From contig JBAZZB010000001.1 of assembly GCA_041659045.1 (NCBI GenBank), positions 198,111 to 262,110 of the forward strand: a DNA stretch of 64,000 bases, given 5' to 3'. The notes under the pieces are model-generated. The model was not told the origin of the DNA. It searched no databases and saw nothing but the letters and a program-made list of their open reading frames with translations. Shown piece by piece: positions 33,637 to 51,878 of this stretch; within the stretch, counting starts at the first letter, position 1; every line of letters starts with the position of its first letter. The position numbers and the translations under genes are program-made. The DNA is from Patescibacteria group bacterium (lineage in GTDB: Bacteria; Patescibacteriota; Patescibacteriia; SG8-24; DYFX01).

Positions 33637-36366
<2,730 letters not shown>

Positions 36367-36380
36367 TTCGCGAACAGAAG

Positions 36381-36409
36381 ACCGACGGTTGACAAACCGT
36401 CGGTTTTTG
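36381..36409 (+). terminator. rho-independent terminator after secA
   Basis: Stem accgacggtt, loop gaca, stem aaccgtcggt, followed by TTTT. Confidence 0.6.
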
Positions 36410-36432
36410 GTATCGTCGAAGAGGGAGGAATT

Positions 36433-37200: not shown

Positions 37201-37218
37201 AACCGGCGTTTTTCTTTT
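37185..37218 (+). terminator. putative rho-independent terminator
   Basis: Stem cgccg (37185-37189), 14-nt loop, stem cggcg (37204-37208), followed by TTTTTCTTTT. Confidence 0.35.
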
Positions 37219-37286
37219 AAAAATCATGCCCAATACGCTGCGAATCTTGCCATTTTAAAGAAAACCAGCCATAGTACGAGAGACAT

Positions 37287-37892
37287 ATGGAGCAGTACTT
37301 CAAAGAAGCGATCGACCTTCAGCACGCGATCTTGCGGGACAAAGTCCTGCTCGACGCGCTGAAAGAGAGCGTTGCCCTCATCGAGGGTTGTTTGAAGCGT
37401 GGTCATAAACTGCTGATTGCCGGCAATGGCGGCAGCGCGGCGGATGCGCAGCATTTTGCCGCCGAGTTGGTGGGCCGATTCAAAAAAGAAAGGAAAGCCT
37501 ACCCTGCCCTCGCGCTGACCGTTGATACGTCGATTATCACAGCCTGGAGCAACGACTATTCGTTTGAGTCGGTCTTCGCGCGCCAGATCGAAGCTTACGG
37601 TAACGCAGGAGATATTTTTATTGGCATTTCGACGAGTGGAAACTCTTCAAATCTTCTCGCGGCCGTGAAGGAGGCGAAAGAAAAAGGAATCTTCAGCCTG
37701 TGTCTTTTGGGCAGAGGCGGCGGCGCTCTCAAGGACATCTGTGACAAGGCCTTGATCGTTCCGTCCGACAACATTCCGCGCATTCAAGAAGTGCACGAGA
37801 TGCTTCTTCATATCATTTGCGAAGAGGTCGAGCGCGGTCTTGTCGGTGCGGAGGCAGCGCATGAAAACACTCTTCATCACGTCCTTTCATAG
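37287..37892 (+). CDS. gmhA: SIS-domain sugar-phosphate isomerase (GmhA-type phosphoheptose isomerase)
   Basis: 201 aa; hallmark GNGGSAADAQHFAAEL and SIS fold (GISTSGNS). Confidence 0.75.
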   Translation: MEQYFKEAIDLQHAILRDKVLLDALKESVALIEGCLKRGHKLLIAGNGGSAADAQHFAAELVGRFKKERKAYPALALTVDTSIITAWSNDYSFESVFARQIEAYGNAGDIFIGISTSGNSSNLLAAVKEAKEKGIFSLCLLGRGGGALKDICDKALIVPSDNIPRIQEVHEMLLHIICEEVERGLVGAEAAHENTLHHVLS

Positions 37893-39270
37893 CTTTATTT
37901 CGAAGAACATCCTGAACACGGATGTTCTGAGAATCCTGGGCGGCGCGTCGGATCTGCGCGTCGTGATTTTCGTGCCGCAAAGCAAAGTCTCTTTTTTCGA
38001 GCGTCATTACGCGTCTGAAAACGTTCGCATCGAAGGCGTCGATGTCGCTACGATCACCGAATCAAAACGCAACGTTTTTTTCAGCCGCCTGTTCTTTTTG
38101 ATGATTCGTTCGCACTACCTTTGGTACAAGAGAGTGGAACGGAGGGACGCGCAGCCGACACTTTTGGCGTGGGTAAAGTACGTCGTCTATTCCGGACTCG
38201 TGCGTGTCCTGAGCGGTTCTCGCGCGCTGAATCGTCTCGCACGTTTTGCATCATATCGCTTTACGCCCAAAAATATTCTTGAGGCGCACTTCGCGCGTTA
38301 TCAACCGTCGCTCGTTTTTTCGACTGACGTGTTCGACCCCGTCGACGCGCAATTTTTAAAAGAGGCAAAGTATCATCATGTCGCGACGCTGGGCATGGTT
38401 CGTTCATGGGACAATTGTTATAGCAAGGGTTTGATGCCCGTGTTGCCTGACGCTCTTTTGACGAACAACGAACTGATTAAAGAGGAGGCGGTCACGCTTC
38501 ATAACTATCCCGCCGAACGCGTCACCGTCGTAGGCTTGCCGCAGTTCGATGCGTTTGTTCGGGAGGAGCGGATCTCACGCGAAGCATTTTTCAAATCGAT
38601 CGGAGTCGATCCAAGCCAAAAGCTCGTCTTGTTCGCTCCCGCCGGTTCTATTTTGTCGGACACCGATTGGCAGACCTGTGAGATTTTGGAGAATGCGCGC
38701 GCGAAAGGGGAGATTCGTCATCCCGTGCACTTTTTCGTCCGAAACCATCCGGGACACCCAGCAGATCTCTCTCGCTTTAAGGAGAACCCTCACTTCACCA
38801 TTCAAAATCCCGGCCAGATATTTGATACCAACTCCAAGAACAACGAGCTGGATCCGCGCGATCAAAAAGAGCTCGCCGATCTTTTGTATCATTCCGACGT
38901 GGTGTTGTTTGTCGCCACAACGCTCGGACTGGACGCCACGGTCTACGACAAGCCGCAGATCATGATCGATTTCGATGGCTACGAAAAAAAGGACTACACG
39001 AAGAGTGTCGCGCGCTATCACGACGAGGATCACATGAAGAAATACATCGCGACCGCTGGCGTGCGCGTCGTGCGTGACGCGAAGGAATTGATCGATTCGA
39101 TCAACGCGTATTTGGAGAATCCTCAAATTGACTCCGAAGGCAGGGATAGTATAGTGAGGGAGCAACTTTTCAAAATCGACGGAAAATCCGGAGAACGCGT
39201 CGCAGAGCAGATCTTGAAATCCTTGAGTGCTTCTTATGGCAAAGAACGAAACAACCAAAAAGAAGTTTGA
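37861..39270 (+). CDS. CDP-glycerol glycerophosphotransferase-family (TagB/TagF-like, Glyphos_transf) protein
   Basis: ATG at 37861 with GAGG upstream; C-terminal pattern KLVLFAPAG ... VRNHPGHP ... SDVVLFVATTLGLDA matches TagF catalytic-region motifs; lower GC3 than its neighbours. Confidence 0.5.
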   Translation: MKTLFITSFHSFISKNILNTDVLRILGGASDLRVVIFVPQSKVSFFERHYASENVRIEGVDVATITESKRNVFFSRLFFLMIRSHYLWYKRVERRDAQPTLLAWVKYVVYSGLVRVLSGSRALNRLARFASYRFTPKNILEAHFARYQPSLVFSTDVFDPVDAQFLKEAKYHHVATLGMVRSWDNCYSKGLMPVLPDALLTNNELIKEEAVTLHNYPAERVTVVGLPQFDAFVREERISREAFFKSIGVDPSQKLVLFAPAGSILSDTDWQTCEILENARAKGEIRHPVHFFVRNHPGHPADLSRFKENPHFTIQNPGQIFDTNSKNNELDPRDQKELADLLYHSDVVLFVATTLGLDATVYDKPQIMIDFDGYEKKDYTKSVARYHDEDHMKKYIATAGVRVVRDAKELIDSINAYLENPQIDSEGRDSIVREQLFKIDGKSGERVAEQILKSLSASYGKERNNQKEV

Positions 39271-40369
39271 CCCTTCTCTCATCGAACCGCTCGACGGTTC
39301 GCCGATGATCAGTGCGAACTGCTGGAACGCGGTTCTTGAAACTGTCGATGAGCGGGCGCGAACGGAAAAGCGCTTGCGCTGCCTTGAGTGGGGAGCTGGA
39401 AACAGTACGATCAGTTTGGTGCGCAAAGGTAGGAAGATGGAAAACGATTTTGAATTTGTTTCGATTGAACACGAAACGAATTTTTTCCACTGGCTCGCAG
39501 AGTCTGTCCTGGCAGAGTTCTTGGACGGCTCCAGCACGAATTTGAAAATCACCTGGCAGCCGCTTGCGGGCGCCGTCATTCCCTTAGCAAGACTTGGAGC
39601 GACGTTGAAAGAACACCGTGCGCTCGAGTGTGCGTCGCTCAGCTGGCAGATTCTTTTGGGTAACCGAAGACTGCAATACATCGACGGCTTCCGGCCGCAA
39701 TTCGATTTTTCCGCGTTCAAGCTGTTCAAACAGGCGGCAAGATTGCTTTTGATGAAAATGGGCTATGCCCTGTGGTTGGTAAAGAGCGTTGCGCGGTCGT
39801 TTATTTCAAAATCAGCCCCTGCTCAGACGCACAAACTGGCTGCGCCCACGCTCGTACTGTCGGGTGCGTCCATTAAGAAAGGTGCCTTCTTCGAACATTT
39901 CGAGGAGAATCCTGTTCCCGGCTGCCTCACGATAGAGCAGTCCGGTGCGCGCGTGGAGTTATGGCACCTGCCCGCGCTGGAAACGGTCTTTTGGAACAAG
40001 GGGGTTCTGCTGGATGGATCGATCAAGCAGCTGTTCGAGTACGTATGCGTGCCGTTGAACGGCTCGTTCGATGTGGTGTTCATCGATGGTCGTGCTCGTG
40101 TTTCCTGCATCAAGCGAACGCATCGAGATAAGCTTCTGAAAGACGGCGGCTCGTTGTTCGTGCACGATGCCTTCCGTGCCGAGATGGCGGAAGGTTTCCG
40201 GTTGTTTAGCCCTTCGTTTTCGTTCATCCGCGGCTCAAACACGACGTTGAATGGGCAGTCGAGATGCGAGGAGAAATTCGGTATGCCCTTGGCGCGCGTC
40301 GGCGATGATCTGCGCACGTTGCGTTGGGAGATCACCCAGGAAATGTTCACGTATAAGAATTCTCGTTGA
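39227..40369 (+). CDS. hypothetical protein, possibly a TylF/FkbM-like SAM-dependent methyltransferase
   Basis: 380 aa; Gly-rich loop CLEWGAGNSTISL followed by acidic EFVSIE; the C-terminal VVFIDGRA...LFVHDAF resembles macrocin-O-methyltransferase-type folds; weak. Confidence 0.35.
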   Translation: MLLMAKNETTKKKFDPSLIEPLDGSPMISANCWNAVLETVDERARTEKRLRCLEWGAGNSTISLVRKGRKMENDFEFVSIEHETNFFHWLAESVLAEFLDGSSTNLKITWQPLAGAVIPLARLGATLKEHRALECASLSWQILLGNRRLQYIDGFRPQFDFSAFKLFKQAARLLLMKMGYALWLVKSVARSFISKSAPAQTHKLAAPTLVLSGASIKKGAFFEHFEENPVPGCLTIEQSGARVELWHLPALETVFWNKGVLLDGSIKQLFEYVCVPLNGSFDVVFIDGRARVSCIKRTHRDKLLKDGGSLFVHDAFRAEMAEGFRLFSPSFSFIRGSNTTLNGQSRCEEKFGMPLARVGDDLRTLRWEITQEMFTYKNSR

Positions 40370-40370
40370 T

Positions 40371-41264
40371 ATGCCGCGCCCAAAATTCCTCCAAAATTTG
40401 ATGAAAGGACCCCGACGCTTTGAAGGGGGATTGGTGTTGAATGCTTTTGGGTATCACGCGCTTCGTATCCTAGGTTTCAAGATTGCGTATGCGTTACGAA
40501 GGAAAATTGAATCACAAGACGCGAACGTGAAGCGGGTTGCAGAAGAGGTTTTGCGCGACGGCATTGTCGTGCTTCCAAACTATTTTTCTGAAGAGGTTTT
40601 TTCGAAAATTAAACGCGAAGCGGATAGCTTGAACCTTGCGACGGTCAACGAACGCGCGCCGCGAATTTTGCGCAGCGTTATTGTCGCTGACGGTCGACCG
40701 ACTTCAAACGAGACGCTTGAGACGTATTTCGCGAAAAACGATTTTCTTAACGGCGTCGCGGCGACGGTGCTCAGAAAAAAGATTCTTTTGACACCGACCG
40801 TACAAGTCGAGAGGAGCTGGTACGCTCAGGAAGACCTAGGCAAAGAGTCCACGGACAAGGCGGACAATCTGCATTTTGACGTCAGTTATCCGACGGTCAA
40901 AGCCTTCTTGTATCTCAACGACGTCAGCGCGGACAACGCCGCCTTTTCTTACGCCAGAGGCTCGCAAAAAATGACGCTCGCGCGTTTGTGGATGGAATAC
41001 AAAATGAGCGTCAAATTTTGGTTGTGGGACAAAAAGAGCCGTGAGACCATTACGCCAGAAGTGAGCCGCGAATTTCTCAAGAACAACGGATTTGAACTCA
41101 AGTCGATCGTCGGAAAAGCGAATACGCTACTTATCGTTAATACGATGGGTATGCACCGCAGAGGCGATTACGCCATGACGACCCCGAGAGAAATGGTGAA
41201 TGTGAGCTACCGCGTGCTGGAGACGTTCAAATTCTTTCTGCGCGAGCTTCGTCAAAAACGGTAG
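40371..41264 (+). CDS. phytanoyl-CoA dioxygenase (PhyH)-like Fe(II)/2-oxoglutarate oxygenase, putative
   Basis: 297 aa; H-x-D motif HFDVSYPTVKAFLYLNDV and a distal His (MGMHRRG) consistent with a 2OG-oxygenase facial triad; tentative. Confidence 0.4.
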   Translation: MPRPKFLQNLMKGPRRFEGGLVLNAFGYHALRILGFKIAYALRRKIESQDANVKRVAEEVLRDGIVVLPNYFSEEVFSKIKREADSLNLATVNERAPRILRSVIVADGRPTSNETLETYFAKNDFLNGVAATVLRKKILLTPTVQVERSWYAQEDLGKESTDKADNLHFDVSYPTVKAFLYLNDVSADNAAFSYARGSQKMTLARLWMEYKMSVKFWLWDKKSRETITPEVSREFLKNNGFELKSIVGKANTLLIVNTMGMHRRGDYAMTTPREMVNVSYRVLETFKFFLRELRQKR

Positions 41265-41267
41265 ATC

Positions 41268-41972
41268 CTAGCGGCGGCGAAATTTATCGAGTGCGATGTG
41301 CAAATCTTCCGGCGTGTTGATGTCGCCGTCAAAAAATTCGTCCATGACGAACAGTTCCACTTTGTCTCCGTAGAGGTTTGAAGGTTCCTCGTACAGATTC
41401 GAAGGTTTCAAAATGTAAGCGATGTCGTTTCTCGAGTAGCAGGGCGGCAAGTCTTGGCTTCGCGTCCTGATGCTTTTGAGCGAGACGCCGTCAAAAAGCA
41501 CGACGCGTCCCTCTTCGTTTTTCCGCAAGATCCAGTGTGGGTTTCTGTTGGCGCGCGCTTCGGATACGGTCACGACGGAATCCGCCGCAGTTTCTTTGAA
41601 ACGGGTGATGGCTTGGTCGAGAACTTCCGGCGTACGCAAAGGGTTCGTGGGCATGAGCAGCGCGATTGCGTCAGGAACGTACCCTTCGTTTTTTTTGAGC
41701 CACTCGAGCGTGTCGATCAGGACAGGTTCAATACCGATCGTGTCCTGCGCCAGCGCGGCCGGACGCAAAAATGGCACGTCAGCACCGTGTGCCATGGCGA
41801 TCTCTTGAATCTCCGCGTCATCCGTATTCACCAACACCCTGGAAATCGAGGGTGTTTTCAGTGCGGTTTCAATCGCCCAGGCAATAACAGGCTTGCCGTC
41901 AAAATCAGCAATATTCTTTTTGGGAATACGTTTTGAGCCTCCGCGCGCTGGGATAATCGCTAAAACTTCCAT
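41268..41972 (-). CDS. acylneuraminate/ulosonate cytidylyltransferase (NeuA/PseF/KdsB family)
   Basis: 234 aa; N-terminal IIPARGGSKRIPKKN and LRPAALAQD motifs of CMP-sugar synthetases. Confidence 0.75.
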   Translation of the reverse strand: MEVLAIIPARGGSKRIPKKNIADFDGKPVIAWAIETALKTPSISRVLVNTDDAEIQEIAMAHGADVPFLRPAALAQDTIGIEPVLIDTLEWLKKNEGYVPDAIALLMPTNPLRTPEVLDQAITRFKETAADSVVTVSEARANRNPHWILRKNEEGRVVLFDGVSLKSIRTRSQDLPPCYSRNDIAYILKPSNLYEEPSNLYGDKVELFVMDEFFDGDINTPEDLHIALDKFRRR

Positions 41973-42054
41973 ACGATCCGATGCTACATGATCGCCATTA
42001 TTCCTTCAATATAGAAAAAAGCCGCATACGAGTTGTATGCGGCCGTCGTGAGTC

Positions 42055-43767
42055 TCACATGTTCAGGATCTTCTCGATCTCTCCGTTGTCGGCGTAGGCG
42101 CGCGCCTCGAGGAACTGATCCATGGGCATCGCGCCGAAGTAGAGCGGTTCGCCGTGCTCGTTGTGCATCACCTTGGTGGCGTCATCGAGCTCGAGGATGT
42201 ACTTCCGCAGCGCTTCGTCGCAAACGGGTTCGCCGTCGGCGCCGAAGGTGAGACCGAACGTCTTCGCCAGGATGTCCTTGGCCGCGGGGTCCTTGAACAT
42301 CGCGGTGCCAGGGTAGGCGGTCGCCGTGAACATCCGGGCGTTCACCGAGGCGTATGCCGTCTTGTAGACGTCGCTTCCTGGCGTGAGTCCCTGCGTGTAC
42401 AGCTCGCGCTGCCACTGGATGAACGCGACGCTGGTCTTGAGATCCGCGAGCGTCTCGCCGGGGTAGCCCATGATCCAGGTGCAGTTCGAGTGGATGCCGA
42501 AGGTTCGACAGTTGCTGATACCCTTCACCATCGTGACGGGGAACTCGTAGGCGCGGCCGTCGATCTTCATCGGCGTCAGGCCGTACTTGAGGATGTGGCC
42601 ACCCTTGTTCATCCGACGCAGCATGGGATCGCTGGCGCTTTCCGCGCCGAAGCCGATGTAGACGCAGCCGGCCTTCGCCATGAGCTCCGCCCGTTCGTCG
42701 GCCGCTTCGTCGAGACGCGTGTGCGTGCCCCAGCGAACGCCGAGTGCGGCGTAGGCGCCGACGAGCTGCTCGATCCGCTTCTTCTGGACCGCGAAGTTGT
42801 CGTCGGGATGGCCCATGAAGTCGATCTTGTACTTGTCGACGCGCTGGCGAACTTCTTCCACCAGCTTCTCGGCCGACCGCACGCCGTAGTCGCGCTCGCC
42901 CTGGGCGCCGCGAAAACAGAAGTTGCAGGCGTAGGGGCAGCCGCGGCTGCTGACGGCAGTCAGACTGCGTTCCATCGTGAAGGGCGTCGCCGAACTGTTG
43001 TTCGCGGCGGTGCCCCAGACGGGCGTCGTGATGTACCACTCGAGAACGGGGTTGCCGAACACATCTTCTTCCAGAAGATCCCAAGCCGCGAACGGCAGGA
43101 TGTCCAGGTCGGACGCACGGTTGCCTTCGTAGAGAAAGAGTGGCCGGCCGTCCGGAGCGGTTCCCATGTGGTACGGGCTCAGTCGAGGAGAGATGATGGC
43201 CTTCGAGACCCCCAGCTCCTTCATGAGCTTCACGTCGCGCGCACAGATGAGCATGATGTCGTCGCCTTCGGAGTGGCCGACCGCGTCGAGTTCCGGAATC
43301 CAGCCGAAGAGGCCGGTCCGAACCTCGGTCGCGAGTCCGCCGCCGGAGATGATGAAGGCGTCCGGAACAAGGTTCCGGCAGATCTTCGCGACGTTCTCCT
43401 GCCAGCGCAGCGTCGTGATCATGCCGGTGAAGGCGATGATGTCCGGCGCGCCGTGCTTGTGGAAGTGCGCCGCGAGCAAGTTCTTGGCCTCTTCGTACGT
43501 CAGGTGTCTGCCGTTGGGCAGTCCCGCCGACGCGACGTCCGTGATGCGGTACGCGTTCAAGTCGACGATCGTCGGATCCGCGCCGTACTGGCGCAGCCGC
43601 GCGGCCAGGAGACCTGGTCCCTCGGGCGGCGTGTTGGGCTTGGCGGTCTCGCGAAGCGGCATGTTGATGAAGACGACGCGAACGCCGAGCAGATCGTCAT
43701 ACGTCATTCCGCTGACCAGCGTGCTCGGATGGGCCTTCTGCGTCTTCAAAACGGTGAGTCGGGTCAT
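42055..43767 (-). CDS. cobalamin-binding radical SAM enzyme (class B radical SAM, probable methyltransferase)
   Basis: Start at MTRLTV (43767) with GGAGGGAG SD; N-terminal B12-binding Rossmann region; radical SAM motif SSRGCPYACNFCFRG (C-x3-C-x2-C); very high GC3. Confidence 0.75.
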   Translation of the reverse strand: MTRLTVLKTQKAHPSTLVSGMTYDDLLGVRVVFINMPLRETAKPNTPPEGPGLLAARLRQYGADPTIVDLNAYRITDVASAGLPNGRHLTYEEAKNLLAAHFHKHGAPDIIAFTGMITTLRWQENVAKICRNLVPDAFIISGGGLATEVRTGLFGWIPELDAVGHSEGDDIMLICARDVKLMKELGVSKAIISPRLSPYHMGTAPDGRPLFLYEGNRASDLDILPFAAWDLLEEDVFGNPVLEWYITTPVWGTAANNSSATPFTMERSLTAVSSRGCPYACNFCFRGAQGERDYGVRSAEKLVEEVRQRVDKYKIDFMGHPDDNFAVQKKRIEQLVGAYAALGVRWGTHTRLDEAADERAELMAKAGCVYIGFGAESASDPMLRRMNKGGHILKYGLTPMKIDGRAYEFPVTMVKGISNCRTFGIHSNCTWIMGYPGETLADLKTSVAFIQWQRELYTQGLTPGSDVYKTAYASVNARMFTATAYPGTAMFKDPAAKDILAKTFGLTFGADGEPVCDEALRKYILELDDATKVMHNEHGEPLYFGAMPMDQFLEARAYADNGEIEKILNM

Positions 43768-43898
43768 GCGATCTCCCTCCAGGAGCGTTGTGCAAGGATC
43801 TGGGCGAAGCGTAGTGTTTTTTTGCCGAATTGTCAAGGTTTTCATGGGACGAAACGCCGGATTTTACGGTTTGCGCAGAGGTGTTATGATGCCCCCAT

Positions 43899-44390
43899 AT
43901 GAAGATCGAGTGGAAAGACATCTTGCTTTTGGTTTCGGATTTCGACGGCGTCATGACCGACGGTCTTGTTCTTGTCGACCAGGACGGGAAAGAGTCGGTG
44001 CGCTGCAGCAGGAGAGACGGTTTGGGCGTCGCGCTTCTCGCCGAGCAGGGAGTAAAAACGATCGTCATCTCGAAGGAGCGTAACGGCGTCGTTGCCGCTC
44101 GCTGTGCAAAGCTCAAGATCGAGTGTTTTTCCGGCGTCGATGATAAAATCCAGCTCTTGAAAAAAGTTTTGGAAGAAAAAAGCGTTGATCCCCGGCAGGC
44201 CTGTTTCATCGGCGATGACGTCACCGACGTCGATTGCATCCGACATATCGGTATCGGTGTCGCGGTTGCTGATGCGATGCCGGCGGCGAGGGAGGCGGCG
44301 GACTACGTGACGCAGGCGAAAGGTGGAGATCACGCGGTTCGGGAAGTGTGCGATTTGATCTGTCATGCCAAACAAGAACATGCATCTTAA
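43899..44390 (+). CDS. HAD-IIIA phosphatase, KdsC-like (ulosonate-phosphate phosphatase)
   Basis: 163 aa; motif I VSDFDGVMTDG and overall KdsC architecture (GDDVTDVD motif IV). Confidence 0.75.
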   Translation: MKIEWKDILLLVSDFDGVMTDGLVLVDQDGKESVRCSRRDGLGVALLAEQGVKTIVISKERNGVVAARCAKLKIECFSGVDDKIQLLKKVLEEKSVDPRQACFIGDDVTDVDCIRHIGIGVAVADAMPAAREAADYVTQAKGGDHAVREVCDLICHAKQEHAS

Positions 44391-45153
44391 TCTGGAGGGC
44401 GCGACAATTTTTGTTTCGGGTTCGACGGGCGGCATCGGCTACGCGATTGCAGATTCTTTTTTGGCTGAAGGTGCGCGCGTCTTGATCCATGGAAGAGAGG
44501 AGGCAAAGTTGAAGATCCGTTTGGCGTCGCTGATTGAAAAATATCCTGAGCAGGTCATGGGCGTCGCGGCGGACCTGACGGATCCGAAAGGCCGGAGCGC
44601 GCTGTTCGACGAAATTCATAAAAAAAGCGGCCAGCTCGACGTCGCGGTTTTTTGCGTCGGCAACGGCAACGTCGCTAAGGGGCACAATCTGAGCCAAGAG
44701 CAGTGGGATGAAATTTTCGCGCAGAACTTTTTCGCCAACACCCTCACGGCAACGACGCTCATGCCATTGATGAAAAAAGGGAAGAGCGCGAGTTTGTGTT
44801 TTATTGGTTCAATCGCGGGACTTCAATACCTCAAGGCCCCGACGGGATACGCGGTTGCGAAGTCGGCGCTCGATACCTACGTGAAGTGCGTGGCGCAAGA
44901 GCTTGCCGCTGACGGTATTCGCGCGAATATCGTGCACCCCGGGAACATTCTTTTTGAAGGCGGTCGGTGGGAAGAATTGCGAAAAGAACGCGGTGAAGAG
45001 ACGGAAACGTATCTTGCCTCAAACGTCGCGATGAAACGTTTCGGCACTCCGGAAGAGGTAGCGGCGGCCGTTGTCTTTCTCGCTTCACCGAGAGCGTCGT
45101 TCATCACGGGCGCGTCGATCCTTGTAGATGGCGGGCAGGTAAAATCATTTTAA
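44365..45153 (+). CDS. short-chain dehydrogenase/reductase (SDR)
   Basis: TGGIGYAIA Rossmann motif; YAVAKSA Y-x3-K catalytic motif; the start may be 44380. Confidence 0.75.
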   Translation: MPNKNMHLNLEGATIFVSGSTGGIGYAIADSFLAEGARVLIHGREEAKLKIRLASLIEKYPEQVMGVAADLTDPKGRSALFDEIHKKSGQLDVAVFCVGNGNVAKGHNLSQEQWDEIFAQNFFANTLTATTLMPLMKKGKSASLCFIGSIAGLQYLKAPTGYAVAKSALDTYVKCVAQELAADGIRANIVHPGNILFEGGRWEELRKERGEETETYLASNVAMKRFGTPEEVAAAVVFLASPRASFITGASILVDGGQVKSF

Positions 45154-45255
45154 AACCGAGGCTAGAGAACACGCCGTGCGTCGCTACTGGACGAAATGCC
45201 CTGCGCGCGCTATATTCTCGTGTCAGAGATTTTCTTAGAAAGAAAGGAACTAGCC

Positions 45256-46098
45256 ATGGAGCTTTCAGGATCAGCGACAATGGAGGCGTTTACCCTTACG
45301 GGTAAGGTCTACGTCATCACGGGTGGAGCGGGCTATCTCGGCACGCAGCACGCCGAAGCAATTCTCGATGCGGGAGGCAGTGTCGCGCTTTTTGATATCT
45401 CCGAAGGCGTTTTTGAAAAAGCGAAGCAACTTCAAGCATCGCGTAAGCAGCCCGTACGCGGCTATCGCGTCGACATCACGTCAAAATCGGACATCGAGAA
45501 AGCGGTCAGCTCGGTCGTTGCCGATTTCGGCGGGGTTGACGGGCTCATCAATAACGCGGCCTGTAATTCAGAAATGGATCGAGGCGGCAGTGGCTATCGT
45601 GGTGAGTTTGAAAACTTGCCGCTCGAACAGTGGAACAAGGAAATCGAAGTTGGACTCACGGGCGCGTTCTTGATGGCTCAAGTTGTCGGTCCGTTCTTGG
45701 TGCAAAAGGGGAGTGGCGTGATTTTAAACATCGCCTCCGACCTTTCCGTTATTGCTCCTGATCAGCGCTTGTACCGCAACGAGGAAGCGCCGGACGAACG
45801 CCAATCGTTCAAGCCCGCGACCTATTCAGTCACGAAACACGCCTTGGTCGGCCTGACCAAATATTTGGCGACCTATTGGGCCGACAAAGGCATTCGCGTC
45901 AACGCCATTTCGCCGGGTCCCGTCTATAAGGAAGGGGCGGATCCCAAGTTCGTTCAGCGCATCAGCAAATTAATTCCGCTGGGAAGAATGGCGAAGTACG
46001 ACGAATACAAAGCCGCCATTGTTTTTCTCTGCTCCGACGCGTCTTCGTATATGACGGGGCAGAACGTGATCATGGATGGAGGGCGAAGTGTTTGGTAA
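45256..46098 (+). CDS. short-chain dehydrogenase/reductase (SDR)
   Basis: VITGGAGYLGTQHAE Rossmann motif; YSVTKHAL Y-x3-K motif. Confidence 0.7.
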   Translation: MELSGSATMEAFTLTGKVYVITGGAGYLGTQHAEAILDAGGSVALFDISEGVFEKAKQLQASRKQPVRGYRVDITSKSDIEKAVSSVVADFGGVDGLINNAACNSEMDRGGSGYRGEFENLPLEQWNKEIEVGLTGAFLMAQVVGPFLVQKGSGVILNIASDLSVIAPDQRLYRNEEAPDERQSFKPATYSVTKHALVGLTKYLATYWADKGIRVNAISPGPVYKEGADPKFVQRISKLIPLGRMAKYDEYKAAIVFLCSDASSYMTGQNVIMDGGRSVW

Positions 46099-46912
46099 AA
46101 ACCAGATCGGCATCATCCAGGGCCGCCTGACGGCTTCGGACGGAAAACTCCAATGCTTTCCGTATGGGAAATGGAAGGAGGAGTTTTTTATTGCGCGGTC
46201 TCTGGGATTCGACTGTATTGAACTTATTGTCGAAAGAAAGGTTGGTGCGCCAAATCCGCTTTGGGAGACGGATGGTGTCCGCGAACTTCTCGCGGTTTCA
46301 AAAGAATCGGGCGTGCGCGCTTTTTCTTTGTGCGACGATCAGATCATGGACGCAGGACTGCTTTCCGCTGAAGGTCCTGGGGCTGCCGTGTGCTTTGAGA
46401 CGCTCGTGAAACTTCTTGGTCAACTTAAGCAGCTCGGCGCGACGAGATTAATTTTGCCGTTTCTTGAGGAGGCGAGTGTGAAAGAAAATCGCGAAGGTTT
46501 CCTGGCCGTCAGGGGATATTTGGAAAAACTCGTACCGATCGCGGAAGACTGCGGTGTCGAGATAATGCTGGAGAATGATCTTCCTACGCCGCTTTTGAAG
46601 GAGCTTGTCTCGACGACGGCTGGCAAAATCGGCGTGTGCTATGACACGGGAAACAGGACGTGGTTCGGCTTTACTCCAGGCGAAGAGATTCTTGAATTAG
46701 GGTCGCTCGTCCGGCACGTGCATATAAAGGACAAAGCCGCTGACGGAAAAAATGTCATGCTTGGCACGGGTGCGGTTGATTTTGCTTCCGTCTTTTCCGC
46801 GTTGCGGAAGATCAAATACGATGGCCCACTCATTCTTGAAACGTCGCGCGGCGACGAAGATGTTCAAGCGGGGCGCGAAAATATCGCATTCGTGCGACGT
46901 TTTCTTGGATAG
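46076..46912 (+). CDS. sugar-phosphate isomerase/epimerase (xylose-isomerase-like TIM barrel)
   Basis: 278 aa; AP-endonuclease-2/xylose-isomerase-like barrel features (IELIVERK, MLENDLP, VHIKDK). Confidence 0.55.
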   Translation: MEGEVFGKNQIGIIQGRLTASDGKLQCFPYGKWKEEFFIARSLGFDCIELIVERKVGAPNPLWETDGVRELLAVSKESGVRAFSLCDDQIMDAGLLSAEGPGAAVCFETLVKLLGQLKQLGATRLILPFLEEASVKENREGFLAVRGYLEKLVPIAEDCGVEIMLENDLPTPLLKELVSTTAGKIGVCYDTGNRTWFGFTPGEEILELGSLVRHVHIKDKAADGKNVMLGTGAVDFASVFSALRKIKYDGPLILETSRGDEDVQAGRENIAFVRRFLG

Positions 46913-47017
46913 TACCGAAGTTTTTTAACGCGTCTTACGTACCGTGAGTACGGGTCTTGTCAATTCCATTTTAAAGTGTTAGGGTCGCACCAAGGTCCTT
47001 ACAGCTAGGAGCAAGAC

Positions 47018-47884
47018 ATGACGAAGGTGAAGATCGGCAACTGCAATGTTGGTTCCGGTTCCCCGTGTTTCGTGGTCGGCGAGATCGGCATCAATCACAA
47101 CGGCGATCTCGCGATCGCGAAGAAGCTCATCGACGCCGCGGCCGACGCCGGCTGTGACGCGGTGAAGTTCCAGAAGCGATCCGTTGACGTGGTCTACTCG
47201 GCTGAGGAGCTGGCCAAGCCGCGGGAGAGCCCCTGGGGCAAGACCAACGGTGATCAGAAGCGCGGTCTCGAGTTCGATCTGGAGCAGTACGCCGTCATCG
47301 ACGCGTACTGCCGCATGCGCGGAATCCTGTGGTTCGCGTCCCCCTGGGACGAGGACAGCGTGGACTTCCTCGAGAAGTTCGATCCGCCGTGCTACAAGAT
47401 CGCGTCAGCGTCCCTGACCGACGACGGCTTGCTCCGGCACATCCGGTTCAAGAACCGTCCCATCATTCTCTCGACGGGCATGTCCACGATGGACGAGGTC
47501 GACCATGCGGTCGCCCTCTTGGGCAGCACGGACCTCGTCCTGCTGCACACCGTCTCGACCTACCCGGCGGAGAACAAGGATCTGAACCTCCGTACGATCC
47601 AGACGCTCGCCAAGCGCTTCCCGCAGCTGCCCATTGGCTACAGCGGTCACGAGCGCGGCACGACGCTCTCGGTCAACGCGGTCGCGCTCGGCGCCTGCAT
47701 GATCGAGCGCCACATCACGCTCGACCGTACGATGTACGGCAGTGACCAGGCCGCGAGCCTGGAGCCGACGGGCCTCAAGCTCATGGTCGACAAGATCCGC
47801 GCGCTCGAGGAAGCCCTGGGCGACGGCGAGAAGATGGTTCTCCCCGCGGAGGTCGCGATCAAGGCGAAGCTCCGGCGCAAGTAA
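47018..47884 (+). CDS. N-acylneuraminate/nonulosonate synthase family (NeuB/PseI/LegI-like) catalytic domain
   Basis: 288 aa; AGGAG SD; N-terminal CFVVGEIGINHNGDLAIAKKLIDAAADAGCDAVKFQ hallmark; there is no C-terminal SAF (antifreeze-like) domain before the stop. Confidence 0.8.
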   Translation: MTKVKIGNCNVGSGSPCFVVGEIGINHNGDLAIAKKLIDAAADAGCDAVKFQKRSVDVVYSAEELAKPRESPWGKTNGDQKRGLEFDLEQYAVIDAYCRMRGILWFASPWDEDSVDFLEKFDPPCYKIASASLTDDGLLRHIRFKNRPIILSTGMSTMDEVDHAVALLGSTDLVLLHTVSTYPAENKDLNLRTIQTLAKRFPQLPIGYSGHERGTTLSVNAVALGACMIERHITLDRTMYGSDQAASLEPTGLKLMVDKIRALEEALGDGEKMVLPAEVAIKAKLRRK

Positions 47885-47896
47885 GCTCTCAAGTAT

Positions 47897-47930
47897 GGGG
47901 AGGCACGTGTAGTGCCTCCCCGTTTTTTTT
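47897..47930. terminator. rho-independent terminator shared by convergent genes
   Basis: Stem ggggaggcac, loop gtgta, stem gtgcctcccc, followed by TTTTTTTT; the stop codon of the minus-strand flippase gene lies within the T-tract. Confidence 0.65.
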
Positions 47931-49128
47931 ATTCGCGCAAGCGCCTGAACAAGATAATCGAAGCGGCGGAACTCAGTGCGTTGCCGAGAATGAAGGCATA
48001 GACTGCACCCCAGACTCCGTACGGCGGAAGCAGGAGGAGAAGTAGAATGATGCGTGATCCGTTGACGAAAAACTTAAGAATGTAGAGCTCCCTCTGCCTT
48101 TTCTGCGCGAACATCGTTTGCGAAAAGAGAACAGCTGGATGAAACAGATATCCGAGTGCGAGCGCTTGAGACACGGTCACGGCGTCGAGGTACTGCGGGA
48201 AGATCCAACGGAAAACGAAAGGCGCGGCCGCGATATAGGCCGCGATAATGACGGCGTACGCCAAGAAAATTCTAAGAGATTTGTCGTAAATCGTGGCTCG
48301 GATGGTTTCCAAAGACGACGAACTGAGTTTGGGGAAGATAAGCGTCGTTAGCATTTTTGAAACGACCTTCAACTGCGCCGGCAAGCTGAAGCCGATGCTA
48401 TAGATCGCGAGCGGTACGGCGCCAAGATAGTGGTAGATCAACACCTTGTCCGCATGAAAGACGATGATGCTGATGATATTCAAAACGCTGACATGCTTCC
48501 CGTAGCTGATGTTCGAATAGTCCACCGTGTTTCCCGGCTTGTACTTCTGAAGGGTACGAAGGTAGAGAATGCTGCTTGTCGCCGCGTGCGAAAGAAAATA
48601 GGCGAGCACGATCACGATGACGTTGCGGGTGATGAGGATTGTCCCCAAGAGCGCAATGGCGGGAACGACGCTTCTGAAGATGCCGTAGATCGAATCGGTC
48701 TGAAAATCTTTTTTCCCACCCAGAAAGGAGGAATACAAAGAAGTGCTCTCGATGATAGGCAAGAGAGCGCCAGCGATTAAGAAAGAGATCGCGACGATCC
48801 AGTTATTTTGGATGAAGTAATAGGTCGCGCCGACCAGAGCGGCGAGAAGTACGAGCACGCTCCATTTCAGCTGCACCCAAAAACCCGTACGGATCATGCC
48901 TTCAAACCCTCTGGCGACGGCTTGAGTAACGGCGATGCCCATGCCGCTGAGAGAAAAGGCCGCGAGGATTCCCGCCAGAGAGAGGATGTATTTATAGTCC
49001 CCGTACACCTCCTTTGGCAGAAGGTTCGCGAAAGCGACGGCAAGCAAGAGTCCTGAAACCATCGAAACGCCCTGGCCCACCATGAGCCAAAAACTACCCT
49101 TCGCAAGGTAGAGCATGTCGGTTTTCAT
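47929..49128 (-). CDS. Wzx-type polysaccharide flippase (MOP/PST family)
   Basis: Approx. 12 predicted TM helices; PST-family architecture; start ambiguous (49128, 49182 or 49392 in the track). Confidence 0.7.
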   Translation of the reverse strand: MKTDMLYLAKGSFWLMVGQGVSMVSGLLLAVAFANLLPKEVYGDYKYILSLAGILAAFSLSGMGIAVTQAVARGFEGMIRTGFWVQLKWSVLVLLAALVGATYYFIQNNWIVAISFLIAGALLPIIESTSLYSSFLGGKKDFQTDSIYGIFRSVVPAIALLGTILITRNVIVIVLAYFLSHAATSSILYLRTLQKYKPGNTVDYSNISYGKHVSVLNIISIIVFHADKVLIYHYLGAVPLAIYSIGFSLPAQLKVVSKMLTTLIFPKLSSSSLETIRATIYDKSLRIFLAYAVIIAAYIAAAPFVFRWIFPQYLDAVTVSQALALGYLFHPAVLFSQTMFAQKRQRELYILKFFVNGSRIILLLLLLPPYGVWGAVYAFILGNALSSAASIILFRRLRE

Positions 49129-49293
49129 GTATTTCTCGCTCCAGCGCAAAAGGCGCACGATGCGGTCTCGTAGGATATCCATGAAAGGAGTATGCCACCG
49201 AAGGTCGAACGTTCCAAGGGTGACGTTGCTGTTCTGTCTCATCCGCGCTAGGATTTCCGCGCGTTCATTTTTGCGGCGCACAGAGGAGGTTTC

Positions 49294-49905
49294 ATGAACT
49301 ACAAATCGGAAACGATCGCTGCCTACGACGCGTACCCCGATCGCTTCGATCAAGAGTTCGAGCAGCACATGCTTCGGCACAACTCCGAGCACATTCGAAG
49401 GTTCCTCGCCGCGCTTCGCGGCCCGCGTGTTCTTGATCTCGGGTCAGGACCAGGTAATCACGCGGCTGCGTTCGTACACGCTGGTTGCGACGTTCTCTGC
49501 GGAGACCTATCTGTCGCCATGATCGAACAGTGCCGGAAGAAGGGTCTTGAGGCGGAGGTGCTCGACCTTGAGACGTTCGAGCTCGGTCGTCGTTTCAACG
49601 GTGTGTGGGCCAACGCGTGCTTGCTTCATCTGCCCAAGAAGCAGATCCCCGGCGTTCTTGATCGGATCAGGCGTCATCTCGAACCGACGGGTGTATTCGC
49701 TTGCGGTGTAAAAGAAGGGGAGGGGGAGCGTTTCGAGTCCGACGTCGACTACCCAGATACCCAACGCTTCTTCAGTCGCTACACCGACGAGGAGTTCCGT
49801 GCACTGCTCGCGCCGACCTTTCTGGTCGAACACTTCGAACGCACGTCCTCGCCCTCTGGCCGCACCGTCTTCCTCAAATATCTCGCGCATCCGCGGCACT
49901 CTTGA
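49294..49905 (+). CDS. class I SAM-dependent methyltransferase
   Basis: 203 aa; GGAGG SD 5 nt upstream; motif I VLDLGSGPGNHA, post-I CGDLS. Confidence 0.65.
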   Translation: MNYKSETIAAYDAYPDRFDQEFEQHMLRHNSEHIRRFLAALRGPRVLDLGSGPGNHAAAFVHAGCDVLCGDLSVAMIEQCRKKGLEAEVLDLETFELGRRFNGVWANACLLHLPKKQIPGVLDRIRRHLEPTGVFACGVKEGEGERFESDVDYPDTQRFFSRYTDEEFRALLAPTFLVEHFERTSSPSGRTVFLKYLAHPRHS

Positions 49906-49974
49906 CGCTGTTGGTCACCTCCGCGCTCCGATGGTAAAATCTCGCCATCGGATTTTTTATCCCCACCCGCCACT

Positions 49975-50388: not shown

Positions 50389-50403
50389 CGATTCGTCCTC
50401 CGT

Positions 50404-51858: not shown

Positions 51859-51878
51859 TATGTTAGGGTGGAAGCGCT

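What the first reader, a model, noticed from the sequence alone, without database searches (positions are those of the whole stretch)
42055..43767. Cobalamin-dependent radical SAM enzyme inside a CMP-(non)ulosonic acid module
A class-B radical SAM protein (B12-binding domain plus CPYACNFC) lies convergent with a NeuA-like cytidylyltransferase. It sits next to a KdsC-like phosphatase, two SDRs, a TIM-barrel isomerase and a NeuB-like synthase. B12-rSAM enzymes C-methylate unactivated sugar carbons in antibiotic pathways (GenK- or Fom3-like chemistry). Here it could create a C-methylated or otherwise alkylated nonulosonic or ulosonic acid, which is not a commonly described glycan modification.
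Basis: partly seen in the sequence, partly recalled or inferred. Interest (0 to 1): 0.55.

Follow-up and report, generated by a model that had tools for sequence, protein, structure and literature searches.

The report
Radical SAM enzyme tailoring a CMP-sugar-acid
A real gene for an uncharacterised, unusually conserved B12-type radical SAM enzyme sits in a strain-specific surface-sugar island of a candidate-phyla-radiation bacterium, and its relatives, also found in marine phages, almost always accompany genes that make CMP-activated sialic-acid-like sugars, so it probably adds a chemical modification not yet described for this sugar class.

Summary
Window 42055-43767 (- strand) encodes a 570-aa radical SAM protein with CPYACNFC and a B12-binding-type N-terminal domain. 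It lies among a PseF-like cytidylyltransferase, a KdsC-type phosphatase, two SDRs, a TIM-barrel enzyme and a NeuB-type synthase that lacks the SAF domain. One detail is wrong: the rSAM and the cytidylyltransferase are tandem, not convergent.

The protein belongs to a tight, unnamed family, about 60% identical across Patescibacteria, a few other phyla and 29 viral contigs. It reaches no curated family cut-off (BchE, HpnJ, PhpK, AprD4). In loci with long flanks, NeuB (31/39 cellular, 21/21 viral) and the cytidylyltransferase (32/39, 16/21) accompany it.

The reverse does not hold. Only 1 of 80 loci anchored on the same NeuB type carries it, so it is an accessory tailoring gene. The whole 12-kb module is a strain-specific island: close relatives carry a Kdo-type or minimal cassette in the same SecA-SecDF slot.

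The chemistry is unproven. Cobalamin-dependent C-methylation is the leading reading (about 0.4). AprD4-like dehydration and other radical rearrangements remain open. The carbon number of the sugar (8, 9 or 10) is also unknown. No paper in the searched library links radical SAM enzymes to ulosonic acids.

The parts
37218..49284 (.). Strain-specific 12.07-kb ulosonic-acid island between the conserved SecA/Exo_endo_phos genes and the conserved MTase/SecDF genes
   Evidence: blastn synteny with L192 (SecA 97% aa identity): L192 8625-13580 matches window 32250-37217, and L192 16613-19511 matches window 49285-52147. In L192 the island is replaced by 3.0 kb. L190 and L191 carry other cassettes in the same slot.
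37287..37892 (+). GmhA-like SIS sugar-phosphate isomerase
   Evidence: TIGR00441 206 bits (cut-off 209.45), SIS_2 88 bits. Found in 16 of the 74 cellular rSAM-anchored loci and 15/80 NeuB-anchored loci.
37840..39270 (+). TagF-like (Glyphos_transf / BFO_1060-like) putative ulosonic-acid transferase
   Evidence: PF04464 37.2 bits; NF046086 58.6 bits, below its cut-off of 200. Found in 19/39 full-flank rSAM loci but 3/80 NeuB-only loci.
39227..40369 (+). Class I SAM methyltransferase-like protein
   Evidence: Weak Methyltransf_24 hit. In L106 the 407-aa gene in the corresponding position is Methyltransf_23. The same gene order is seen in L054.
40251..41264 (+). PhyH-like Fe(II)/2-oxoglutarate dioxygenase (the true start is probably downstream of 40251)
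   Evidence: PF05721 25.3 bits against a cut-off of 22. Present only in window-type loci (3/76).
41268..41972 (-). CMP-ulosonic-acid synthetase (PseF/KdsB-like cytidylyltransferase), in tandem downstream of the rSAM
   Evidence: CTP_transf_3 78.4 bits; TIGR03584 PseF 164 bits, below its cut-off of 205.7. Found in 32/39 cellular and 16/21 viral full-flank rSAM loci. Forms an isolated rSAM+CMP-transferase pair in L023, L026 and L029.
42020..42044 (-). Terminator-like hairpin (10-bp stem plus T-tract) just after the rSAM stop codon
   Evidence: Consensus scan. The total number of such sites in the region is no more than chance, so the position is only suggestive.
42055..43767 (-). Class-B-architecture radical SAM enzyme (570 aa): B12-binding-type Rossmann domain (about 25-205), rSAM core with C277/C281/C284 (about 265-450), and a family-specific C-terminal region (about 450-570)
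43863..43890 (+). Promoter-like site in the 131-bp divergent region ahead of the HAD gene
   Evidence: Consensus scan, (1 found against 0.9 expected, so weak).
43899..44390 (+). KdsC/YrbI-family HAD phosphatase (ulosonate-phosphate phosphatase)
   Evidence: TIGR01670 116.4 bits against a cut-off of 106.95. The Kdn-9-P phosphatase model scores 94.2, below its cut-off of 180.
44365..45153 (+). SDR oxidoreductase 1
   Evidence: adh_short_C2 173.8 bits.
45196..46098 (+). SDR oxidoreductase 2, resembling sugar-acid dehydrogenases (GolD/DthD, gluconate-5-DH, KduD)
   Evidence: NF005309 174 bits, NF006070 156 bits, KduD 131 bits, all below their cut-offs. Within 3 kb of the rSAM in 37/74 loci.
46076..46912 (+). 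Xylose-isomerase-like TIM-barrel isomerase/epimerase
   Evidence: AP_endonuc_2 89 bits. Weak hits to L-ribulose-5-P 3-epimerase and IolO/IolE. Fused to NeuB-SAF in L072.
47018..47884 (+). NeuB-family PEP-condensing synthase without the SAF domain
   Evidence: PF03102 271.6 bits. TIGR03569 scores 267, below its cut-off of 399.65, and matches model positions 1-278 of 329. It is 45-68% identical to the NeuB of rSAM loci.
47929..49392 (-). Wzx-type polysaccharide flippase
   Evidence: Polysacc_synt 61.4 bits. Found in 24/39 full-flank rSAM loci.

Best explanation
The ORF encodes the signature enzyme of an unnamed, tightly conserved family of class-B-type radical SAM proteins. These proteins have a B12-binding-like Rossmann domain, a CX3CX2C [4Fe-4S]/SAM core and a family-specific C-terminal region. 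The enzyme acts as an accessory tailoring enzyme on a CMP-activated 3-deoxy-2-ulosonic acid.

Inferred pathway in the window: a GmhA-like isomerase supplies an aldose phosphate. The SAF-less NeuB condenses it with PEP. The KdsC-type phosphatase removes the terminal phosphate. The two SDRs and the TIM-barrel enzyme edit stereochemistry or oxidation state. The cytidylyltransferase makes the CMP-sugar. A TagF-like transferase and a Wzx flippase place it on a surface glycan.

The rSAM, always closest to the cytidylyltransferase, modifies an unactivated carbon of the free or CMP-linked sugar. The most likely reaction is as follows: the 5'-deoxyadenosyl radical abstracts a hydrogen from a hydroxyl-bearing carbon, and methylcobalamin delivers a methyl group, as GenK and Fom3 do. 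The product would be a C-methylated (branched or chain-extended) ulosonic acid.

Shown: the gene, its fold class, the conserved linkage, its accessory status and the island structure. Inferred: every enzymatic step, cobalamin use and the methyl transfer.

My probabilities: acts on the ulosonic-acid pathway, about 0.9; uses cobalamin, about 0.55; C-methylation, about 0.4.
For: Linkage to the module. In rSAM-anchored loci with at least 8 kb on both sides, NeuB is present in 31/39 cellular and 21/21 viral loci, and the cytidylyltransferase in 32/39 and 16/21. Example loci from a Sungiibacteriota genome, a groundwater contig and a Tara scaffold show the same genes. More distant relatives (35-46% identity) in Desulfobulbia and in T4-like and P22-like phage contigs still sit beside NeuB, CTP_transf_3, methyltransferases and GT29 sialyltransferase-like genes.

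Accessory status. Only 1 of 80 loci anchored on the same SAF-less NeuB type carries the family, and 0 of 15 with long flanks do, although HAD, SDR, TIM, GmhA and the CMP-transferase recur there.

Coupling to cytidylylation. The two genes are in tandem in the window, in L106 and in most loci. In Polyangiaceae and Opitutia MAGs they form an isolated two-gene pair in unrelated surroundings. From my own knowledge, Fom3 methylates a CMP-linked substrate.

Cobalamin-type domain. PF02310 is hit by 20/25 family members and by nearly all of the listed sister-clade members. The N-terminal-domain profile finds only TokK's cobalamin domain among natural PDB chains (24.4 bits, E 1.7e-4) and not AprD4. The full-length profile ranks TokK above AprD4 (39.6 against 35.2 bits). 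One relative lies next to a MeaB-like B12-chaperone GTPase.

A self-contained reaction. No SDR accompanies the isolated rSAM+CMP-transferase pairs, and an SDR is present in only 12/21 viral and 25/39 cellular full-flank loci. This argues against an obligatory AprD3-type reductase partner.

No auxiliary cluster. Only four invariant cysteines are present: C277, C281, C284 and C368.
Against: No biochemical or mass-spectrometric data exist. The window protein's own B12-binding hit is below Pfam's threshold (19.9 against 32.1 bits). AprD4, which has the same architecture but uses no cobalamin, is as close structurally as the methylases (Foldseek E 9e-16, TM 0.64 on the target). Class B members also catalyse cyclisation, ring contraction and P-methylation, and no curated family cut-off is approached. 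An SDR resembling sugar-acid dehydrogenases lies within 3 kb in half of the loci, and keto-sugar aminotransferases follow the rSAM in viral operons. Both would fit a dehydratase that produces a ketone. Separate class I methyltransferases are frequent in the loci, so methyl groups on the final sugar need not come from the rSAM.
Confidence: 0.4

Rival explanations
1. A cobalamin-independent radical dehydratase like AprD4. The 5'-deoxyadenosyl radical abstracts a hydrogen from a vicinal diol of the ulosonic acid (for example its glycerol-like side chain). Water is eliminated to give a deoxy-ketone. A neighbouring SDR then reduces the ketone (an AprD3-like step), or in phage and some CPR loci an aminotransferase aminates it. 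The product is a deoxy- or amino-deoxy-ulosonic acid.
For: AprD4 (6fd2) is among the top structural and sequence matches (Foldseek E 9e-16; phmmer 30.3 bits; profile 35.2 bits). SDR2 lies within 3 kb in 37/74 cellular loci and resembles 2-keto-3-deoxy-sugar-acid dehydrogenases. In viral operons the order is rSAM, CMP-transferase, DegT or class IV aminotransferase, SDR, NeuB.
Against: The AprD4 family model scores 37.1 bits against a cut-off of 500. AprD4's N-terminal domain is not detected by the family's N-terminal profile, whereas TokK's cobalamin domain is. The isolated rSAM+CMP-transferase pairs have no SDR. The SDR/TIM genes belong to the core module, which exists without the rSAM, so they are not its dedicated partners.
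Confidence: 0.2
2. Some other radical chemistry on the same sugar: epimerisation at an unactivated centre, carbon-skeleton rearrangement or ring contraction (as in OxsB or HpnJ), oxidation or cyclisation, with or without cobalamin.
For: Class B architecture supports all of these, and HpnJ and BchE models give scores similar to the methylase models. The family is well separated from every characterised group: only 60 representatives at E<=1e-30, then generic proteins at about 120 bits. It has a unique, conserved C-terminal region. Very high conservation (about 60% identity across phyla) fits a demanding reaction.
Against: Nothing specific points to any of these reactions. Stereochemical editing is already plausibly covered by the SDR/TIM/SDR set. 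From my own knowledge, most characterised class B enzymes are methylases.
Confidence: 0.2
3. The rSAM has nothing to do with the sugar module and acts on another substrate (lipid, peptide or cofactor). On this view its position is a by-product of island shuffling.
For: The island is mosaic and strain-variable. The rSAM may be its own transcription unit, with a terminator-like hairpin after its stop codon. Its GC3 (0.85) differs from most neighbours.
Against: Linkage to NeuB and CTP_transf_3 persists across Patescibacteria, Desulfobulbia, other phyla and phages, through many different gene orders, and down to 35-40% identity. NeuB shares the high GC3 (0.90).
Confidence: 0.03

Closest known systems
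Cobalamin-dependent (class B) radical SAM C-methyltransferases acting on hydroxyl-bearing sp3 carbons: GenK (gentamicin C6') and Fom3 (CMP-2-hydroxyethylphosphonate); structurally TokK, CysS, TsrM and MgmA
   Same: Two-domain architecture (Rossmann B12-type domain plus CX3CX2C core). The fold matches TsrM, TokK, CysS and MgmA. TokK's cobalamin domain is the only natural PDB match to the N-terminal domain. The context is carbohydrate tailoring, and the gene is tightly coupled to a cytidylyltransferase, recalling Fom3's CMP-linked substrate (my own knowledge).
   Different: 15-17% identity to the solved structures. No curated methylase model is approached (PhpK family 74.7 against 600, KedN5 36.3 against 700). 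It has a different C-terminal region. The substrate class (ulosonic acid) is not known for any class B enzyme. Cobalamin binding and methyl transfer are untested.
AprD4/AprD3 (apramycin C3'-deoxygenation): a radical SAM diol dehydratase plus an NADPH reductase
   Same: Same overall fold (Foldseek E 9e-16). It acts on a sugar, and an SDR is often adjacent.
   Different: NF033070 scores 37.1 bits against a cut-off of 500. The N-terminal domains are not detectably similar. The SDRs belong to the rSAM-independent core module.
Kdo pathway (KdsD-KdsA-KdsC-KdsB), the phosphorylated Kdn route of Bacteroides, and Streptomyces teichulosonic-acid loci (NeuB-like plus CMP-transferase plus TagF-like; my own knowledge)
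   Same: The same logic of isomerase, PEP-condensing synthase, KdsC-family phosphatase and cytidylyltransferase. A close relative carries a true Kdo-type cassette (SIS+CBS, DAHP_synth_1, phosphatase, CTP_transf_3) in the same genomic slot. A TagF-like transferase is present, as in teichulosonic-acid loci.
   Different: The synthase is NeuB-family rather than KdsA, and it lacks the SAF domain of characterised NeuB/NANS. The isomerase is GmhA-like rather than KdsD. Extra SDR/TIM/SDR, PhyH, methyltransferase and radical SAM genes are present. The Kdn-9-P phosphatase equivalog cut-off is not met (94.2 against 180).
Canonical CMP-nonulosonic acid pathways (Neu5Ac, legionaminic and pseudaminic acid)
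   Same: A NeuB-family synthase and a CTP_transf_3 cytidylyltransferase (PseF model 164 bits).
   Different: None of the island ORFs scanned is a nucleotide-sugar 4,6-dehydratase, aminotransferase, N-acetyltransferase or hydrolysing 2-epimerase. The NeuB and PseF equivalog cut-offs are not met. A phosphatase implies a phosphorylated intermediate.

Membership tests
Radical SAM superfamily | CX3CX2C cluster motif and the Radical_SAM domain above Pfam's threshold | tested here: met
   C277-X3-C281-X2-C284, invariant in 99 homologues. PF04055 68.9 bits against a cut-off of 29.5.
Class B (cobalamin-dependent) radical SAM | N-terminal B12-binding (PF02310-type) Rossmann domain fused to the rSAM core | tested here: inconclusive
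   The window protein scores 19.9 bits, below the cut-off of 32.1. 20/25 family members hit at E<=0.01. The fold matches TsrM, TokK, CysS and MgmA, but equally the cobalamin-free AprD4. TokK's Cbl domain is the only natural PDB hit of the N-terminal profile.
Class B (cobalamin-dependent) radical SAM | Bound cobalamin and methyl transfer via methylcobalamin (SAH and 5'-dA both formed) | not testable with these tools
   Needs purified protein, UV-visible or EPR spectroscopy and product analysis.
AprD4 family radical SAM diol dehydratase | NF033070 equivalog score of at least 500 | tested here: not met
   37.1 bits, core region only.
BchE / HpnJ (bacteriochlorophyll and hopanoid class B enzymes) | TIGR02026 at least 481.35 bits; TIGR03471 at least 577.6 bits | tested here: not met
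   72.8 and 60.9 bits. No pigment or hopanoid genes nearby.
PhpK/Fom3-like and other named class B methylases | Curated model cut-offs (TIGR04479 600; NF033712 700; TIGR03975 281.85; TIGR04014 360) | tested here: not met
   74.7, 36.3, 40.9 and 32.0 bits. No curated GenK or Fom3 model gave a hit.
CMP-nonulosonic acid (Neu/Leg/Pse) biosynthesis module | NeuB/PseI/LegI-type synthase with SAF domain at equivalog level | tested here: not met
   PF03102 271.6 bits, but TIGR03569 scores 267 (cut-off 399.65) and PseI 221 (cut-off 340.25). The match ends at model position 278 of 329, so there is no SAF domain.
CMP-nonulosonic acid (Neu/Leg/Pse) biosynthesis module | Nucleotide-hexosamine precursor enzymes (4,6-dehydratase, aminotransferase, N-acetyltransferase, hydrolysing 2-epimerase) in the module | tested here: not met
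   None found among the island ORFs scanned (37218-49284). The DegT, hexapeptide and GFO genes at 13.6-19.8 kb belong to a separate part of the glycan locus.
Kdo/Kdn-type phosphorylated ulosonic-acid route | KdsC/YrbI-family phosphatase with a PEP-condensing synthase and a CMP-transferase | tested here: met
   TIGR01670 116.4 bits against a cut-off of 106.95. NeuB-family synthase and CTP_transf_3 are present. KdsA itself is absent, and the Kdn-9-P phosphatase equivalog is not met (94.2 against 180).
Conserved rSAM-ulosonic-acid gene neighbourhood (the unnamed family defined here) | Co-location with NeuB and CTP_transf_3 across unrelated genomes | tested here: met
   31/39 and 32/39 cellular full-flank loci; 21/21 and 16/21 viral full-flank loci.

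The most novel reading that the evidence does not exclude
This family is a cobalamin-dependent C-methylase that extends or branches the carbon skeleton of a CMP-linked ulosonic acid, for example by methylating the terminal hydroxymethyl carbon as GenK and Fom3 do. The products would be ten-carbon or C-branched sialic-acid-like sugars on the surfaces of CPR bacteria and of phage-infected marine bacteria. This would give a genetic route to the 'higher-carbon' CMP-ulosonic acids seen by mass spectrometry in Magnetospirillum gryphiswaldense, for which the preprint assigns no genes (bioRxiv 10.64898/2026.04.20.719630).
Probability: 0.3. Interest if true: 0.8.

Novelty: new variant of a known kind. 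Interest (0 to 1): 0.62.

Why it matters
Sialic-acid-like sugars cap microbial surfaces and decide recognition by hosts, phages and immune systems. Their known diversity comes from N- and O-substituents and from stereochemistry. A radical SAM step would add carbon-level editing to this sugar class.

The family is abundant in Patescibacteria, whose tiny genomes nevertheless keep it. In the window's lineage it sits in a hypervariable surface-glycan island. Large marine phages also carry it together with NeuB and a cytidylyltransferase, which makes it a candidate auxiliary gene set for remodelling host or virion glycans.

No cultured organism appeared among the 70 reference-genome loci, which were all MAGs. 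That may explain why the family has escaped study. It gives a concrete, clonable candidate for explaining unassigned higher-carbon ulosonic acids, and for the enzymatic synthesis of modified CMP-sugars.

Tried and rejected
- The + strand ORF 42154-43902 is a shadow ORF. The longer 596-aa start is not supported by the homologues' lengths.
- Exact-sequence look-ups of the window protein found no record.
- Literature searches found nothing relevant: 'radical SAM' with nonulosonic, ulosonic acid, pseudaminic, or NeuB+cytidylyltransferase, and Patescibacteria with nonulosonic. The cyanophage and marine-virome papers that surfaced mention the terms in unrelated places.
- A cultured-phage search found only a distant 27%-identity rSAM in Streptomyces phage SF3.
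- Rfam and tRNA scans of the window were empty; in particular no cobalamin riboswitch was found.
- I searched the sister clade hoping for a named Magnetospirillum homologue to link to the C10 sugars. None appeared among the 120 listed hits.
- I first read the rSAM as integral to the pathway because of its strong linkage. I rejected this after the NeuB-anchored scan showed the module is common without it.
- I had provisionally assigned the window to Eremiobacterota because one 85% homologue is labelled Baltobacteraceae. SecA placed the window in Patescibacteria instead.
Full report
**1. What is in the sequence**

Two long ORFs overlap at the reported position. The minus-strand one translates to a typical enzyme that contains SSRGCPYACNFCFRG. 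The plus-strand one is a low-complexity, R/G/V/A-rich shadow ORF.

Pfam finds Radical_SAM (68.9 bits, cut-off 29.5) and a sub-threshold B12-binding hit (19.9 bits, cut-off 32.1, residues 101-171). At family level the B12-binding domain is hit by 20 of 25 members.

An AlphaFold model built on 99 homologues is confident (pLDDT 90.1, pTM 0.90). Foldseek against the PDB returns only class-B-architecture enzymes at the top: TsrM, AprD4, MgmA, TokK and CysS (E 3e-16 to 5e-12, TM 0.45-0.64). Generic rSAM cores follow.

The named neighbours are all real:
- a PseF-like cytidylyltransferase
- a KdsC/YrbI-family HAD phosphatase, above its subfamily cut-off
- two SDRs
- an AP_endonuc_2 TIM barrel
- a NeuB-family synthase that stops before the SAF domain

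The same island also holds a GmhA-like isomerase, a TagF-like transferase, a methyltransferase-like protein, a PhyH-like dioxygenase and a Wzx flippase.

One detail in the finding is wrong. The rSAM and the cytidylyltransferase are on the same strand, in tandem with an 82-bp gap that holds a terminator-like hairpin. They are not convergent.

**2. Which family**

No NCBIfam model comes near its cut-off. The best scores are ApyD 83 (cut-off 750), PhpK family 74.7 (600), BchE 72.8 (481), HpnJ 60.9 (578) and AprD4 37.1 (500). All of these align only to the rSAM core.

The protein has 832 homologues at E<=1e-5. The best 120 are 57-91% identical over the full length, and almost all are unnamed. In a library clustered at 50% identity, only 60 representatives score E<=1e-30. 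After them come generic class B proteins of 430-480 aa at about 120 bits, and these are themselves unassigned.

So this is a compact, distinct family with its own conserved C-terminal region. It has many invariant polar residues and only four invariant cysteines, which argues against an auxiliary cluster.

In one-genome-per-species bacterial and archaeal references, all 70 loci are MAGs. Most are Patescibacteria, with a few Polyangiaceae, Opitutia, Pirellulales, delta- and gammaproteobacterial bins. A further 29 loci lie on IMG/VR viral contigs of up to 203 kb.

**3. Neighbourhood**

I searched six-frame ORFs of all loci with profiles built from the window's proteins. Counts for rSAM-anchored loci with at least 8 kb on both sides:

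| Neighbour | Cellular (of 39) | Viral (of 21) |
|---|---|---|
| Cytidylyltransferase | 32 | 16 |
| NeuB | 31 | 21 |
| Any SDR | 25 | 12 |
| Flippase | 24 | 0 |
| KdsC-like HAD | 23 | 0 |
| TagF-like transferase | 19 | 0 |
| TIM barrel | 10 | 2 |
| GmhA | 10 | 0 |

Independent gene calls with precomputed Pfam hits show the same genes in a Sungiibacteriota genome, a groundwater contig and a Tara scaffold.

In viral operons the order is typically rSAM, cytidylyltransferase, aminotransferase, SDR, NeuB.

In Polyangiaceae and Opitutia MAGs the rSAM and the cytidylyltransferase form an isolated two-gene pair among unrelated genes. The tightest partner is therefore the cytidylyltransferase.

The linkage holds for more distant relatives:
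- A Desulfobulbia clade of about 440 aa (36% identity) sits beside a NeuB-SAF-TIM-barrel fusion, a CTP_transf_3, a methyltransferase, a second B12-rSAM, an HldE-like gene and GmhA.
- Relatives on T4-like and P22-like phage contigs sit beside NeuB, a methyltransferase and GT29-like genes, and the T4-like contig also has a short CTP_transf_3.

**4. Accessory, not core**

I ran the converse test by anchoring on the SAF-less NeuB. A metagenome scan gave at least 597 relatives. The best 80 are 55-67% identical to the window's NeuB.

In these loci HAD (46), SDR2 (24), TIM (18), GmhA (15) and the cytidylyltransferase (14) recur. The rSAM family appears in only one locus (L173), and in none of the 15 loci with at least 6 kb on both sides.

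The isomerase-synthase-phosphatase-oxidoreductase-cytidylyltransferase module is therefore widespread on its own. The rSAM is an add-on.

A 313-aa class I methyltransferase lies in 20 of 74 cellular rSAM loci, typically between the rSAM and the cytidylyltransferase, and in none of the NeuB-only loci. It is absent from the window.

**5. Genomic setting**

SecA places the window in Patescibacteria. It is 97-89% identical to several 'Patescibacteria group' MAGs, one of them on a 1.17-Mb contig, and about 63% identical to Candidatus Uhrbacteria.

Synteny with three close relatives shows that window 37218-49284 is a strain-specific island between conserved SecA/Exo_endo_phos and a conserved methyltransferase/SecDF block. 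The same slot in the relatives holds:
- 97%-SecA relative: a 491-aa unknown protein plus a flippase
- 93%-SecA relative: a cytidylyltransferase, a His_Phos_1 phosphatase and a 479-aa protein
- 89%-SecA relative: a Kdo-type cassette of SIS+CBS isomerase, DAHP_synth_1 (KdsA-like), phosphatase and cytidylyltransferase

The window's island is thus one of several interchangeable ulosonic-acid cassettes. Its logic parallels the Kdo pathway, with NeuB in place of KdsA and a GmhA-like isomerase in place of KdsD.

The rest of the window from 6 to 32 kb is a large glycan locus.

**6. What the rSAM does**

The pathway order given in the best explanation is inferred from family assignments.

*Evidence for cobalamin use*
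- The N-terminal domain profile matches TokK's cobalamin domain alone among natural PDB chains, and does not match AprD4.
- The full profile ranks TokK above AprD4.
- PF02310 hits are near-universal in the sister clade.
- One relative lies next to a MeaB-like GTPase.

*Evidence against an obligatory AprD3-like partner*
- SDRs are missing from the isolated pairs and from many loci.
- The SDR/TIM genes belong to the rSAM-independent core module.

*Evidence for the dehydratase rival*
- AprD4 is an equally good structural match.
- SDR2 resembles 2-keto-3-deoxy-sugar-acid dehydrogenases.
- Aminotransferases follow the rSAM in phage operons.

I therefore put cobalamin-dependent C-methylation at about 0.4, AprD4-like dehydration at about 0.2, other radical chemistry at about 0.2, and no role in the sugar pathway at about 0.03.

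Coupling to the cytidylyltransferase recalls Fom3, which methylates a CMP-linked substrate (my own knowledge). It suggests that the CMP ester may be the substrate.

**7. Comparison and novelty**

The family works like a sugar-tailoring class B rSAM, but it fails every curated membership test. It is not a member of the GenK, Fom3, PhpK, AprD4, BchE or HpnJ families as far as can be tested.

The module is not a canonical Neu/Leg/Pse pathway. The equivalog cut-offs are not met, the synthase has no SAF domain, and no hexosamine precursor genes were found in it. It is closest to the phosphorylated Kdo/Kdn routes.

In a library of 8 million papers, none links radical SAM enzymes to nonulosonic or ulosonic acids.

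A 2026 preprint reports CMP-activated ten-carbon ulosonic acids in Magnetospirillum gryphiswaldense and assigns no genes to them. A C-methylating rSAM would be one way to make such sugars. However, those sugars are diamino sugars, and I found no named Magnetospirillum homologue, so this is only a lead.

**8. Verdict**

It is a new functional variant within a known enzyme class, with broad distribution in CPR bacteria and marine phages, and it is directly testable.

Noticed in passing
window 42055-43767 and 47018-47884 (also 36433-37200, 29112-29975, 4451-4912): GC3 of the rSAM ORF (0.85) and the NeuB ORF (0.90) is far above that of their island neighbours (0.56-0.67) and above SecA/SecDF (0.71-0.75). 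The cause could be codon optimisation of two highly conserved genes, or a different origin from the rest of the island. It is unexplained.
   Followed up: no
window 14699-17390 (- strand): An ATP-citrate-lyase / citryl-CoA-like trio lies inside the glycan locus, between a DegT aminotransferase and a GT4. It consists of a citrate synthase C-terminal domain, a CoA-binding/succinyl-CoA-ligase-like protein, and an ATP-grasp_2 plus citrate-binding protein. It might supply an unusual acyl group for a sugar.
   Followed up: no
window 53116-55185; also L190 18188-20257 and L192 20465-22534: SecD carries an inserted PPIC-type peptidyl-prolyl isomerase domain (residues about 267-375). The insertion is conserved in the close Patescibacteria relatives.
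   Followed up: partly
window 36367-53115 compared with L190, L191, L192: The slot between SecA and SecDF is hypervariable among strains with 89-97% identical SecA. It holds NeuB-type plus rSAM (window), a Kdo-type KdsD/KdsA cassette (L191), a cytidylyltransferase plus His_Phos_1 only (L190), or a 491-aa unknown protein plus a flippase (L192). Unknown proteins of 479-491 aa recur in it and may be the transferases.
   Followed up: partly
L077-L105, L005, L188, L189 (viral contigs): Large, low-GC (0.30-0.42) marine viral contigs, including T4-like and P22-portal types, carry the rSAM (or a 35-45% identical relative). With it come NeuB, a short cytidylyltransferase, aminotransferases, SDRs, methyltransferases and GT29 sialyltransferase-like genes. 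This looks like a phage-borne ulosonic-acid pathway.
   Followed up: partly
L023, L026 (Polyangiaceae), L029 (Opitutia): The rSAM plus cytidylyltransferase occur as an isolated two-gene pair among unrelated genes (RF3, GH5, PFK, ornithine decarboxylase-like). In L023 the ORF is 678 aa by the longest start.
   Followed up: partly
L072 6810-16052 (Desulfocapsaceae MAG): A NeuB-SAF-TIM-barrel fusion protein (639 aa) is followed by CTP_transf_3, a methyltransferase, two tandem B12-rSAM genes (445 and 497 aa), an HldE-like kinase/nucleotidyltransferase and GmhA. This links heptose genes with the ulosonic-acid synthase.
   Followed up: partly
L187 8001-10544: A 439-aa relative of the family lies directly upstream of a MeaB/ArgK-like G3E GTPase. 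MeaB is the family of the chaperone for B12-dependent methylmalonyl-CoA mutase.
   Followed up: no
L001 12152-13555 (Sungiibacteriota genome CP066690.1): A reverse transcriptase (RVT_1) and a bAvd gene, the hallmark pair of a diversity-generating retroelement, lie beside the rSAM, separated from it by one small 126-aa ORF. An S-adenosylmethionine synthetase gene lies about 4 kb upstream.
   Followed up: no
L025 9013-9816: An additional small SPASM-domain radical SAM protein (267 aa) lies between NeuB and the class B rSAM in one Patescibacteria locus.
   Followed up: no
window 30444-32186: A sugar C-methyltransferase of the TylC3 type (Methyltransf_13 zinc-binding domain plus Methyltransf_14 C-terminal domain) lies next to an NDP-sugar epimerase. 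The same glycan locus therefore already encodes a conventional, SAM-only route to a C-methyl-branched sugar.
   Followed up: no
window 57511-59397: A type IV secretion coupling-protein-like gene (TrwB/TraG-D) lies downstream of SecDF. It is conserved in L190.
   Followed up: no
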